Positions 48,141-48,613 of a stretch of DNA of 64,000 nucleotides are shown here, piece after piece. Position 1 is the stretch's first letter; each line of letters opens with the position of its first letter. The notes under the pieces are model-generated. The model made no database searches and was not told the DNA's origin. It saw only the letters and a program-made list of their open reading frames with translations. Source of the stretch: Candidatus Microgenomates bacterium (lineage in GTDB: Bacteria > Patescibacteriota > Microgenomatia > UBA8517 > JACQJR01); NCBI GenBank assembly GCA_016204995.1, contig JACQJR010000001.1:539034-603033 (forward strand). The letters run 5' to 3'. The position numbers and the translations under genes are program-made.

Positions 48141-48613
48141 AATTAATTATCGGTTTAGGTAATCCAGGAGCAGAATATGCCAATACCCGACATAATGTAG
48201 GATATATGGTAGTTGATCAATTAAAAGTGCAAAGTGCAAAGTTCAAAGATATGACATTTGCTAAAACTAATGTTTTTATGAATGAGTCAGGTCAAGCAGT
48301 AAAAAGGATAATGCCAAATGCCAAATGCCAAATGCCAAATTTATACATAGTTCACGATGACTTAGACATCCCGCTGGGCCAATTTAAGATCCAGTTTGGT
48401 AAAGGTCCCAAAGACCATAAAGGTATTCAATCTATTGAAGAAGCGCTCAAAACAGATCAATTTTGGCGAGTAAGGGTAGGGGTGGACAACCGTGATCCCA
48501 AATCTAGGATTCCAGGTGAAGAATATGTGCTGCAGGAATTTAATAGTCAGGAGCAGGAAGTTTTGACTGGCGTCATCTCCAAAGTTACCCAAGAGCTTGC
48601 TAAATTACCATGA
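48137..48613 (+). CDS. pth: peptidyl-tRNA hydrolase
   Basis: [22 protein letters not shown] with catalytic His; contains in-frame tandem repeats at 48224-48248 and 48311-48340. Confidence 0.8.
   Translation: [158 protein letters not shown]

What the first reader, a model, noticed from the sequence alone, without database searches (positions are those of the whole stretch)
48224..48340. 'tagaa/ttcta'-type short tandem repeats inserted in-frame into many conserved genes
Short tandem or inverted oligo-repeats of one flavour (tctaa, ttagaa, caaat, tgcaaag units) appear inside the coding sequences of at least eight otherwise conserved genes. Frame is maintained in every case.
- pth: aaagtgcaaagtgcaaagttcaaag at 48224-48248, and atgccaaatgccaaatgccaaatgccaaat at 48311-48340 ([10 protein letters not shown]).
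- trxB, 59888-59920: atttctaattccaaatttctaatttctaat, encoding ISNSKFLISN.
- DNA ligase, 43384-43420: ctcaaatctcaaaactcaaatctcaaaa.
- recF, 40981-41028: ttccaagttctaaattctaagctccaaactctaaacttag.
- fpg, 39674-39710 and 39887-39912: gagctaggagcttagagcttag.
- GT4 glycosyltransferase, 38583-38642.
- PBP1A, 10817-10853.
The same motifs make up the intergenic spacers, so the coding copies look like the same mobile or slippage-prone repeat class. This amounts to systematic repeat-driven protein-sequence expansion in housekeeping genes.
Basis: seen in the sequence. Interest (0 to 1): 0.7.

Follow-up and report, generated by a model that had tools for sequence, protein, structure and literature searches.

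The report
Seven-base tandem repeats inside housekeeping genes
This candidate-phyla (Microgenomates) bacterium and its relatives are full of short arrays of 7-base tandem repeats, which fill the gaps between genes and also sit in frame inside many essential genes; this is a known kind of bacterial repeat seen in a new lineage and at unusual density in genes.

Summary
All eight genes carry the repeats at the stated coordinates, and every reading frame is intact.

- **Excess over chance:** The window has 22 period-7 arrays against 0.5 expected. Inside genes there are 12 against 0.37 after codon shuffling.
- **Lineage-wide:** 34 related Microgenomates loci show the same excess, at 23.5 per 100 kb against 2.3 in non-CPR loci.
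- **Reading in three frames:** Seven is not a multiple of three, so each 21-nt triple is read in all three frames and gives 7-residue peptide periods (MPNAKCQ, ISNSKFL, KFKIQNS). Where TAA or TAG would fall in frame, that copy is mutated.
- **Intergenic form:** Copies between genes form inverted pairs that fold into long hairpins.
- **One dispersed element:** A ~110-nt palindromic family (F3) has an in-frame copy inside the 5'-3' exonuclease gene.

"Expansion of housekeeping proteins" is only partly right. The trxB, ligase, exonuclease and first fpg arrays lie in insertions. The second pth array, two fpg arrays and the recF array change no length. The trxB insertion is old and shared across Microgenomates.

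Arrays at the same site in different genomes keep their length but differ in unit, so they are rewritten at the DNA level. This is a new member of a known kind.

The parts
48224..48248 (+). pth array 1: AAAGTGC x3.6, encoding KVQSAKFK. It includes the conserved AKFK and lies next to a 17-aa deletion relative to M. tuberculosis Pth.
48310..48340 (+). pth array 2: perfect AATGCCA x4.4 (31 nt), encoding [10 protein letters not shown]. It replaces 10 residues of a segment that is 20 residues long in the orthologues compared, with no length change. The unit is a stop-free one-base variant of the intergenic AATGCCT unit.
59888..59919 (+). trxB array: TAATTTC x4.6, encoding ISNSKFLISN. The copy where TAA would be in frame reads AAATTTC. 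It forms the first part of a 17-aa insertion shared across Microgenomates.
43382..43426 (+). ATP-dependent DNA ligase loop array: alternating AAACTCA/AATCTCA, about 6.6 copies. In relatives the orthologous site carries heptamer arrays with other units.
40980..41017 (+). recF array: TTCTAAA-type, about 5 copies, with a 21-nt superperiod. The in-frame TAA positions read CAA.
39519..39544 (+). fpg array 1: GAAAGTG x3.7, encoding RKWKVEGG. About +6 aa relative to the closest orthologues.
39676..39701 (+). fpg array 2: AGTTCGG x3.7. No length change. Orthologues L014 and L011 carry other peptides of the array-coded type at this site.
39886..39909 (+). fpg array 3: GAGCTTA x3.4, inside the H2TH domain. 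No length change.
38572..38647 (+). GT4 inter-domain linker: an inverted pair of TTAGANN and NNTCTAA arrays, built like the intergenic hairpins. TTAGA is changed to TTTGA or TTGGA where a stop would fall in frame.
10819..10851 (-). PBP1A array: TCAATTT-type on the coding strand, encoding NFQFTISNFQF. It lies in a stretch of the transpeptidase region that does not align to the PDB homologue.
46999..47022 (+). Array ATGTCCA x3.4 in a variable loop of the MJ0043_C/UvrD-annotated protein.
48857..48886 (+). Two short arrays (AACTCAA, AAATGTT) in the C-terminal tail of the 101-aa ORF.
51085..51101 (+). CTAGTGC x2.4 (the F2 unit) inside the DUF3105 gene. Pfam matches the domain in two stretches, and the best one ends at residue 105, at the array.
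37309..37429 (+). F3 palindromic element in frame in the 5'-3' exonuclease gene: 9-mer x3, then 8-mer x3, then the inverted arm. It is an insertion of about 38 aa that splits the N-terminal domain and is absent from five orthologues.
1335..1450 (.). Intergenic F3 palindromic element, a near-perfect 30-bp stem.
   Evidence: (dG -36.9, z -11.4)
27995..28095 (.). Intergenic F3 palindromic element, upstream of tRNA-Ile.
6198..6230 (+). Intergenic TTAGANN array, directly upstream of the transketolase C-terminal-subunit gene.
9937..10013 (.). Intergenic inverted TTAGANN/NNTCTAA pair. It folds into a hairpin of 5-7-bp helices broken by a 1x1 mismatch at each unit boundary.
   Evidence: (dG -23.3, z -4.9)
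22658..22763 (.). Intergenic inverted TTAGANN pair, downstream of the ribonucleotide reductase gene.
24341..24416 (.). Intergenic inverted TAGGCAN/NTGCCTA pair (family F2), a hairpin.
   Evidence: (dG -30.9, z -3.95)
29152..29190 (+). Intergenic TTAGAAA array between convergent genes.
47409..47439 (+). Intergenic AATTTCT array. Logan contigs end here.
59015..59125 (.). Intergenic F2 hairpin upstream of trxB, overlapping its start codon.
   Evidence: (dG -37.5, z -4.65)

Best explanation
These are heptanucleotide simple-sequence repeats, with a few 8- and 9-nt relatives. They are an abundant, lineage-wide repeat class of this Levybacteria-like Microgenomates (CPR) genome. They are the same kind of thing as the 7-nt "long SSRs" and STRRs of cyanobacteria, Xanthomonas, Burkholderia and Beggiatoa.

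Arrays arise and are kept internally similar by a DNA-level misalignment process. I infer this to be slipped-strand replication or misaligned repair with a 7-nt register.

In the roughly 7% of the window that is non-coding, the arrays accumulate freely. They usually occur as inverted pairs that fold into long, periodically mismatched hairpins.

Inside genes selection acts as a filter. An array survives only under three conditions:
- the net length change is a multiple of three;
- the unit is stop-free on the coding strand, or the one copy in three whose TAA/TAG falls in frame has been mutated;
- it lies in a loop or linker that tolerates it.

Because 7 and 3 are coprime, each 21-nt triple is read in all three frames and produces 7-residue peptide periods.

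Many coding arrays are old. They occupy the same site with the same length in different genera, while the unit sequence changes in concert. So today's arrays mostly rewrite existing loops rather than add new residues.

A minority of cases are insertions of a dispersed palindromic element. This is clear for family F3 in the 5'-3' exonuclease gene and possible for the GT4 linker.

Shown: the anatomy, the excess over chance, the lineage-wide distribution, the stop avoidance, conservation of site and length with changing unit, and the insertion or no-insertion status of each gene. Inferred: the slippage or misaligned-repair mechanism.
For: - **Period-7 excess:** 22 against 0.5 in the window, 12 against 0.37 in CDS after codon shuffling.
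- **Lineage-wide:** 34 CPR relatives give 23.5 per 100 kb against 2.3 in non-CPR loci. Their CDS density is 1.73 against 0.10 per 10 kb.
- **Intergenic enrichment:** about 23 against 2 arrays per 10 kb.
- **Stop avoidance at exactly the in-frame copy** in GT4, recF and trxB.
- **Stop content of units:** by my reading of the table, every intergenic unit contains TAA or TAG, while about half of the coding units are stop-free.
- **Ligase loop:** L024 has (AAATTCG)4.7, L002 has (AAGTTCA)4.7 and L018 has (AAATTCA)4.7. All three are perfect 33-nt arrays at one site. Other species carry decayed arrays of the same length there.
- **trxB:** four genomes carry arrays of identical length with different units. 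L210 differs from L209 by A->G in all four units, which gives Q->R, K->E and a silent change in different frames. Protein-level selection cannot explain that.
- **Second orthologous site:** L033 has AATTTCA and L022 has AATTTCC, both perfect 31-nt arrays.
- **Prior art for the class and for in-ORF heptamers:** PMC4679880 and PMC4692102.
Against: - **Size classes are unexplained.** Simple slippage does not predict the perfect-run lengths seen in CDS, which cluster at 17-21 and 31-35 nt with almost nothing between or above. It also does not predict the 32-nt mode with a fixed AATT...AATT phase across metagenomes.
- **Length-neutral perfect arrays.** Window pth array 2, the L038 GT4 array and L003:13916 align to non-repeat sequence of equal length in orthologues. 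A pure insertion model cannot produce that in one step. No orthologue in the expected -21-nt contracted state was seen.
- **Private variant retained.** In trxB, L210 changed all four units yet unit 3 kept its own TTT next to the changed base. This is awkward for whole-unit conversion.
- **Genome-specific units.** Units are more alike within a genome than between genomes, at 2.31 against 2.63 mismatches with no permutation of 2,000 reaching the observed value. This hints at something beyond purely local events.
- **No direct variation data.** No read-level evidence of copy-number variation was available.
Confidence: 0.7

Rival explanations
1. The repeats are copies of miniature palindromic mobile elements, like Rickettsia palindromic elements or MITEs. 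They transpose into intergenic and coding DNA, and the coding copies are the ones that happened to land in frame without stops.
For: - Family F3 has three copies in the window (1335-1450, 27995-28095, 37309-37429). They align over about 100 nt at 74% column identity, with nhmmer E-values of 1e-25 to 1e-33. A fourth copy lies in another genome at L038:14100-14220.
- The coding copy is a roughly 38-aa insertion that five orthologues lack and that splits the 5'-3' exonuclease N-terminal domain.
- The GT4 linker holds a complete inverted TTAGANN pair built like the intergenic hairpins.
- (AAATTCA)n blocks with a fixed 32-nt form occur in unrelated genomes with GC from 0.31 to 0.60.
- In-frame palindromic elements are a documented phenomenon (PMC10969869).
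Against: - The direct arrays in pth, trxB, ligase, fpg and recF have no hairpin potential, no shared flanks and no fixed length. Their units differ from array to array.
- Arrays at orthologous sites persist across genera with conserved length, which points to inheritance and not repeated insertion.
- No transposase or REP-associated tyrosine transposase was found among the roughly 50 window genes scanned with Pfam.
- Terminal inverted repeats and target-site duplications were not demonstrated.
Confidence: 0.2
2. The arrays are functional cis-elements. They would be periodic binding sites for a lineage-encoded nucleic-acid-binding factor, or RNA structures such as terminators. The factor's specificity sets each genome's preferred unit, and selection keeps both coding and non-coding arrays matched to it.
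For: - Units are more similar within a genome than between genomes.
- The window's trxB array carries the window's own TTTCTAA unit, where relatives have TTCAAAA or TTCGAAA at the same site and length.
- There is a parallel A->G change in all four units of L210 with a private variant retained.
- The intergenic hairpins are far more stable than shuffled sequence, with z from -3.9 to -11.4.
- Heptamer-register binding by cold-shock/OB-fold proteins is discussed in PMC4679880.
Against: - No candidate factor was identified.
- Units within the window are still diverse, with at least three families plus singletons.
- The within-genome similarity effect is small and may reflect base composition.
- The hairpins lack the T-run of an intrinsic terminator.
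- No Rfam family matches them.
Confidence: 0.08
3. The repeats are chance low-complexity sequence, protein-level selection for K/N/S-rich loops, or an artefact of short-read assembly.
For: - The genome is AT-rich (GC about 0.41) and the loops are K/N/S-rich.
- Logan k=31 contigs end at arrays.
- The 31-35-nt modal lengths are close to common k-mer sizes.
Against: - Shuffles that preserve dinucleotides or codons give 0.4-0.5 arrays, against 12-22 observed.
- The periodicity is in the DNA and runs across all three frames, and concerted base changes give different amino-acid changes.
- Independent assemblies are identical across most arrays.
- K-mer collapse would give a uniform phase, not the fixed AATT...AATT form.
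- Frames are intact in every gene.
Confidence: 0.02

Closest known systems
Heptanucleotide long simple-sequence repeats of bacteria (Mrazek et al. 2007, as summarised in PMC4679880 and PMC4692102), including cyanobacterial STRRs, Xanthomonas GGGAATC and Nostoc GGGGA(T/C)T repeats
   Same: - 7-nt units in short head-to-tail arrays of 2-6 copies.
- A strong genome-wide excess of period 7 over all other periods.
- Much denser between genes.
- Inverted arrangements that can form stem-loops.
- Length and sequence variation between related genomes.
   Different: - The host is a CPR/Patescibacteria lineage. No paper linking the two was found in two library searches.
- The units are AT-rich (TTAGANN, TAGGCAN, AAATTCA-like) rather than G-rich.
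- The genome is about 93% coding, so about half of the arrays by count lie inside genes, including core housekeeping enzymes.
TAACTGA heptamer repeats of Beggiatoaceae and cyanobacteria (PMC4679880)
   Same: - The forward orientation has stops in all frames and is confined to intergenic DNA or gene ends.
- The reverse orientation is open and occurs inside ORFs, encoding a 7-residue period (LSVISYQ).
- One copy sits in a surface loop of an RpoC-like protein.
- Whether the origin is mobile or local is left open.
   Different: - There, a single favoured unit lies mostly just upstream of start codons, and in-ORF copies are mostly at protein ends or in hypothetical proteins.
- Here there are many units, with arrays in the interior of conserved enzymes.
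- Here stop-containing units are rescued by point changes in the in-frame copy.
- Here arrays are conserved in site and length across genera.
Rickettsia palindromic elements (RPEs) and other intragenic MITEs (PMC10969869)
   Same: - Palindromic elements of about 100-150 bp, dispersed in the genome.
- Inserted in frame into unrelated metabolic and housekeeping genes.
- They add a peptide segment without destroying the protein.
- F3 in the 5'-3' exonuclease gene fits this picture.
   Different: - The elements here are built from internal 7-9-nt tandem units.
- Only F3 shows an alignable dispersed consensus.
- Most coding repeats are short direct arrays with no palindrome.
- No terminal repeats, target duplications or sequence similarity to RPEs were shown.
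Tandem repeats of Borg extrachromosomal elements (PMC9879509)
   Same: - Pervasive, fast-evolving tandem repeats both between and within genes.
- They add low-complexity segments to proteins.
   Different: - As I recall that paper, which I saw only as an abstract here, Borg in-gene units are multiples of three.
- Here the unit is 7 nt and is read in three frames.
- At least the trxB segment is modelled as folded and not disordered.

Membership tests
Heptanucleotide long SSR / STRR-type repeats | Head-to-tail tandem copies of a 7-nt unit, several copies per array | tested here: met
   About half of the 69 Tandem Repeats Finder rows have period 7 or 14. 25 arrays are catalogued with their units.
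Heptanucleotide long SSR / STRR-type repeats | Genome-wide excess of period 7 over chance and over neighbouring periods | tested here: met
   22 against 0.5 in the window. 116 arrays in 495 kb of relatives, against 3-25 for each other period from 4 to 12. Only 64 kb of this genome could be examined.
Heptanucleotide long SSR / STRR-type repeats | Preference for intergenic DNA | tested here: met
   About 23 against 2 arrays per 10 kb in the window, and 11.4 against 1.7 in relatives. About half of the arrays by count are still inside genes.
Heptanucleotide long SSR / STRR-type repeats | Copy number varies between strains or within populations | tested here: inconclusive
   About 6 of 15 real ends of the Logan k=31 contigs fall at arrays (48311/48312 in three runs, 47408-47433, 43386). 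This is compatible with length alleles or with shared k-mers. No reads were available.
Cyanobacterial STRR families proper (STRR1-3) | The specific consensus units of those families (recalled from memory as CCCCAGT, TTGGTCA, CAACAGT) | tested here: not met
   None of the 25 window units matches. This is membership of the broad class only, not of those named families.
RPE / MITE-like intragenic palindromic elements | Dispersed copies that align to a common consensus | tested here: met
   Met for F3 only: three window copies plus L038, nhmmer E 1e-14 to 1e-33. F1 and F2 share units but no fixed-length consensus.
RPE / MITE-like intragenic palindromic elements | Palindromic, hairpin-forming structure | tested here: met
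   F3 at 1335 has z -11.4. The F1 and F2 hairpins have z from -3.9 to -4.9. The coding F3 copy is weaker, at z -2.2.
RPE / MITE-like intragenic palindromic elements | In-frame insertion in a conserved gene, absent from orthologues | tested here: met
   The 5'-3' exonuclease gene has about 38 extra residues that L045, L008, L016, L009 and L022 lack, and the Pfam domain is split.
RPE / MITE-like intragenic palindromic elements | Terminal inverted repeats with target-site duplication, or an associated transposase | not tested
   Boundaries cannot be fixed at about 45% orthologue identity. No transposase was seen among the window genes scanned.
Phase-variable contingency loci | A repeat tract whose unit steps switch a surface or virulence gene on and off by frameshift | tested here: not met
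   The arrays sit in housekeeping enzymes. All frames are open, with domains matching on both sides. No ORF is truncated at an array.
Amino-acid tandem repeats with codon-multiple units (Borg-type) | Unit length divisible by three | tested here: not met
   The units are 7 nt. The in-gene periods of 6, 9 and 12 nt are near the codon-shuffle expectation. Only the 9-mer x3 inside F3 qualifies.

The most novel reading that the evidence does not exclude
The arrays are not just local slippage products. A dedicated, genome-specific process would write or rewrite them: a templated insertion or repair activity, or selection by a heptamer-register binding factor.

That process would impose each genome's preferred unit on unlinked coding and non-coding sites. 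It would act in quanta of about four units. Examples are the 31-35-nt perfect arrays in Microgenomates genes and the fixed 32-nt block AATT+(CAAAATT)4 found in frame in genes of unrelated phyla.
Probability: 0.1. Interest if true: 0.8.

Novelty: new member of a known kind. Interest (0 to 1): 0.42.

Why it matters
The finding shows that a CPR lineage with a small, densely coding genome carries the same unexplained 7-nt repeat bias seen in cyanobacteria and some proteobacteria. With almost no non-coding DNA available, the repeats live inside core enzymes such as pth, trxB, fpg, recF, ligase, PBP1A and aminoacyl-tRNA synthetases.

It matters in three practical ways.

- **A natural experiment on origin.** Arrays at orthologous sites keep their length while the unit changes. 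They can be used to test how heptamer repeats arise and are homogenised, which previous reports left open.
- **Lineage-specific protein insertions.** Many insertions and odd loops in CPR proteins may be fossil heptamer arrays. Peptides such as KFKIQNS, KFEIRNS and SAKCKVQ are a recognisable signature.
- **Assembly and annotation.** The arrays are break points for short-k assemblies and could cause mis-called frames in MAG annotation.

Tried and rejected
- **Rfam:** A gathering-threshold scan of the whole window found only two tRNAs and nothing at the hairpins.
- **The window's own contig:** I tried to reach the 609-kb NCBI contig or length variants through exact-protein look-ups. The contig is not in the gene-position index, and the protein clusters are singletons. 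The Logan contigs are identical to the window and gave no allele. One apparent variant tail (L087) was a Nextera adapter.
- **"Accordion" model:** This model has arrays contract by 21 nt and then re-expand by 21 nt. I looked for orthologues 7 aa shorter at the ligase loop and found none. The model stays possible but unsupported.
- **Frame selection as the cause of the 31-35-nt size class:** I could not establish this. The same mode appears in apparently non-coding metagenome hits and in one non-coding CPR array, and my coding/non-coding call there is crude.
- **K-mer collapse as the cause of the 32-nt mode:** Not supported by the fixed boundary phase, but not excluded.
- **GC-rich hits as evidence of horizontal spread:** The one I followed up (L120) is a Leptolyngbyaceae-type cyanobacterial oxoprolinase with a hypervariable linker. 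That is a classic heptamer-repeat host, not a surprise.
- **RNR array at 20817-20838:** This is a marginal match in a conserved motif (GALMLMINDW) and I discount it.
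Full report
**What the window is**

The window is a densely coding stretch, about 93% coding with almost all genes on the plus strand and GC about 0.41. 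It comes from a metagenome-assembled "Candidatus Microgenomates bacterium". Its proteins are NCBI MBI4059170-MBI4059228, on a 609,565-bp contig. The ATP-dependent DNA ligase is at most 72% identical to MAGs labelled Levybacteria, Microgenomates or Patescibacteria. The other genes scanned are ordinary chromosomal genes, with no transposase among them.

**Checking the observation**

All the listed repeats are present at the stated places. What actually unites them is a period of seven. About half of the 69 Tandem Repeats Finder rows, 36 by the count, have period 7 or 14.

- A simple self-match detector finds 22 period-7 arrays against 0.5 in dinucleotide-preserving shuffles.
- Periods 14 and 21 are also in excess, and no other period exceeds 4.
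- Within genes there are 12 arrays. The mean is 0.37 and the maximum 3 when codons are shuffled within each gene, so amino-acid or codon composition does not explain them.
- The arrays are not assembly artefacts. Logan assemblies of four sequencing runs match the window exactly, apart from one substitution outside any array, and they span nine of the arrays.

**Anatomy**

Three unit families recur.

| Family | Unit | Evidence |
|---|---|---|
| F1 | TTAGANN / NNTCTAA | 31 triple matches against 0.43 expected |
| F2 | TAGGCAN / NTGCCTA | |
| F3 | 8-9-nt units such as CTCAGAAAA and CCAGAAAG | |

There are also single arrays with other units.

Arrays are about ten times denser between genes, at roughly 23 against 2 per 10 kb. 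Intergenic arrays usually come as inverted pairs. These fold into long hairpins in which 5-7-bp helices are interrupted at each unit boundary by a 1x1 mismatch. Their stabilities lie far outside shuffled controls:

- 9934-10020: z -4.9
- 24335-24425: z -3.95
- 59015-59125: z -4.65
- 28005-28085: z -3.85
- 1335-1455: z -11.4

**How a 7-nt repeat lives in a gene**

Seven and three are coprime, so three units (21 nt) are read once in each frame. This gives 7-residue peptide periods such as MPNAKCQ, ISNSKFL and LKSQNSN.

By my reading of the table, every intergenic unit contains TAA or TAG, while about half of the coding units are stop-free. The coding arrays built from stop-containing units carry a substitution in exactly the copy where the stop would be in frame:

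- TTTGAGC in GT4;
- TTCCAAG and CTCCAAA in recF;
- AAATTTC in trxB.

The perfect pth unit AATGCCA is a stop-free one-base variant of the intergenic AATGCCT.

**Insertion or not**

I extracted orthologues from 34 CPR loci and aligned them. I also aligned the window proteins to solved structures. The answer is mixed.

Net insertions:
- trxB: 17 residues absent from every solved thioredoxin reductase.
- Ligase: about 13 residues.
- fpg array 1: about 6 residues.
- GT4: a linker that varies in length throughout the lineage.
- 5'-3' exonuclease: about 38 residues.

No length change:
- pth array 2. The segment between the MNxSG motif and the catalytic HDD is 20 residues in the window and, by my count, in the aligned orthologues shown. 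It aligns without a gap to M. tuberculosis Pth. My recollection of the E. coli sequence gives the same length.
- fpg arrays 2 and 3.
- recF.

pth array 1 includes the conserved AKFK and adjoins a deletion, and the pth protein is shorter than its orthologues.

The trxB insertion is old. About 36 of 43 Microgenomates homologues have it, with consensus [IV]QN[SE]KFK[IV]QNE[KE]GEVIGN[RK]FSTM. AlphaFold2 models residues 251-280 with pLDDT 87-91 and places beta-strands at 266-268 and 274-277. So this repeat-coded segment has become a structured part of the protein.

**The lineage-wide picture**

The 34 relatives (495 kb) carry 116 period-7 arrays, or 23.5 per 100 kb. Non-CPR loci fetched by the same query carry 2.3 per 100 kb, and there periods 6, 9 and 12 dominate. 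CDS density is 1.73 against 0.10 per 10 kb.

Peptides of the type KFKIQNS (from AAATTCA), KFEIRNS (from AAATTCG) and SAKCKVQ (from AAAGTGC) recur in loops of different proteins in different genomes.

The same site often carries an array in many species, with the same length but a different unit.

- **Ligase loop:** L024 has a perfect (AAATTCG)4.7, L002 a perfect (AAGTTCA)4.7 and L018 a perfect (AAATTCA)4.7. L010 is intermediate, and several species have decayed versions, all of equal length.
- **trxB:** The window, L209, L210 and L211 have arrays of identical length with units AATTTCT, ATTCAAA, AATTCGA and AATTCAA. L210 differs from L209 by A->G in all four units, producing Q->R, K->E and a silent change. 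So the change is concerted at the DNA level and not selected through the protein.

Units are somewhat more alike within a genome than between genomes, at 2.31 against 2.63 mismatches. No permutation of 2,000 reached the observed value.

**A dispersed element**

The three F3 loci align over about 100 nt at 74% column identity. They are recovered by a profile at E 1e-25 to 1e-33, and a further copy lies upstream of pth in L038. The copy at 37309-37429 lies in frame in the 5'-3' exonuclease gene and splits its N-terminal domain. It is absent from five orthologues. This case matches the in-frame palindromic insertions known from Rickettsia.

**Mechanism**

The best reading is a simple-sequence-repeat process in a 7-nt register, filtered by selection in genes. 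A minority of cases are palindromic-element insertions. The register, the filter and the concerted change are shown. The enzymology is inferred.

Several results do not fit simple slippage.
- Perfect arrays can sit where orthologues have non-repeat sequence of equal length.
- Perfect runs in genes cluster at 17-21 and 31-35 nt, with only 4 between and none longer.
- In trxB a private TTT variant survives next to the concerted change.

In-place conversion by transient 7-nt misalignment would explain growth without length change, but not the size classes. I leave these points open.

**Beyond the lineage**

The arrays always lie on the strand of the spanning ORF. They encode NSKFKIQNSK in leucyl- and valyl/isoleucyl-tRNA synthetases, a PriA-like helicase and other long ORFs. 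Host contigs range in GC from 0.22 to 0.68.

Run length peaks at 32 nt, and 17 cases share one phase, AATTC(AAAATTC)3AAAATT. The GC-rich case I followed (L120) is a Leptolyngbyaceae-type cyanobacterial oxoprolinase whose homologues carry similar peptides in the same hypervariable linker. So at least part of this signal comes from classic heptamer-repeat hosts.

**Comparison with what is known**

- Excess heptanucleotide repeats in bacteria, and the proposal that 7 nt reflects the polymerase contact, are already reported (Mrazek et al. 2007, as summarised in PMC4679880 and PMC4692102).
- Heptamers inside ORFs that encode a 7-residue period, with orientation governed by stop codons, are described for TAACTGA repeats.
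- In-frame palindromic elements are described for Rickettsia.
- I found no paper linking heptamer repeats with Patescibacteria in the searchable library. That library omits most subscription journals.

**Verdict**

This is a new member of a known kind, with some unexplained regularities that justify a genome-wide and read-level follow-up.

**Limits**

- Only 64 kb of this genome could be examined.
- The closest orthologues are 35-77% identical.
- My coding/non-coding calls in other loci rest on a simple longest-ORF rule.
- No sequencing reads were available.

Noticed in passing
L089-L208 (metagenome loci), e.g. L207:4908-4939, L114:3549-3580, L185:6178-6209: Exact (AAATTCA)3 matches are common in JGI metagenome contigs with GC from 0.22 to 0.68. 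Run length peaks at 32 nt, and 17 cases share the phase AATTC(AAAATTC)3AAAATT, with unrelated flanks. Many lie in frame in long ORFs. The cause of the fixed size and phase is unexplained.
   Followed up: partly
window 48311-48312, 47408-47433, 43386: Logan (k=31) contigs from several sequencing runs end exactly at heptamer arrays. Three of four contigs end at the left edge of the perfect pth array. This is compatible with copy-number alleles or with shared k-mers elsewhere in the community.
   Followed up: partly
window 1453-2295 and 6234-7235, with 2282-6196 between: The two transketolase subunit genes (N-terminal, and pyrimidine-binding plus C-terminal) are separated by a low-GC block (0.33-0.35) of about 4 kb. 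The block holds a PIN-domain gene, a Fic/DOC gene, an AdoMet decarboxylase gene and small ORFs. It looks like an inserted island.
   Followed up: no
window 28137-28212: ARAGORN calls a tRNA-Ile with anticodon TAT, and Rfam confirms a tRNA there. A UAU isoleucine tRNA is uncommon in bacteria, which usually decode AUA with a lysidine-modified CAU tRNA.
   Followed up: no
window 32062-32132 (-): ARAGORN calls a 71-nt tRNA-Met here, but Rfam's tRNA model does not reach its gathering score.
   Followed up: no
window 43040-44875: The DNA ligase is the ATP-dependent archaeal/eukaryotic type (DNA_ligase_A_N/M/C). Outside CPR its best relatives in the genome collection are mostly archaea, at 38-46% identity. 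No NAD-dependent ligase is seen among the window genes scanned.
   Followed up: no
L045:10001-12748: In this Levybacteria MAG the ligase match spans 2,748 nt for 587 aligned residues. So the gene carries about 1 kb of extra sequence, possibly an intein, an intron or a large insertion.
   Followed up: no
L064 (Chloroflexia MAG), e.g. 8072-8123, 20582-20620 and 20700-20730: A GC-rich Chloroflexia contig also shows many period-7 arrays. These include (TTCTGAT)5+ and an inverted AGGGGTY/CCCTGAY pair like the G-rich Nostoc repeats. Heptamer-rich genomes are therefore scattered across phyla.
   Followed up: no
window 10276-12759 and 12825-15077 (both -): Two class A penicillin-binding protein paralogues (transglycosylase plus transpeptidase) lie head to tail. 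Only the first carries a heptamer array.
   Followed up: no
alignments, e.g. recF of L008/L010/L026, pth of L038/L026, the 45997 homologues of L035/L033/L015: A second recurrent loop peptide, of the type SSGQA / GGQA(Q/K), appears in different proteins of several relatives. It may mark another small repeat or element family in this lineage.
   Followed up: no
window 43040-44875 and 39176-40147: The ligase and fpg products as I delimited them are not in the protein collection by exact sequence, unlike the eight other genes queried. The deposited annotation may use other start codons or mark them differently.
   Followed up: no
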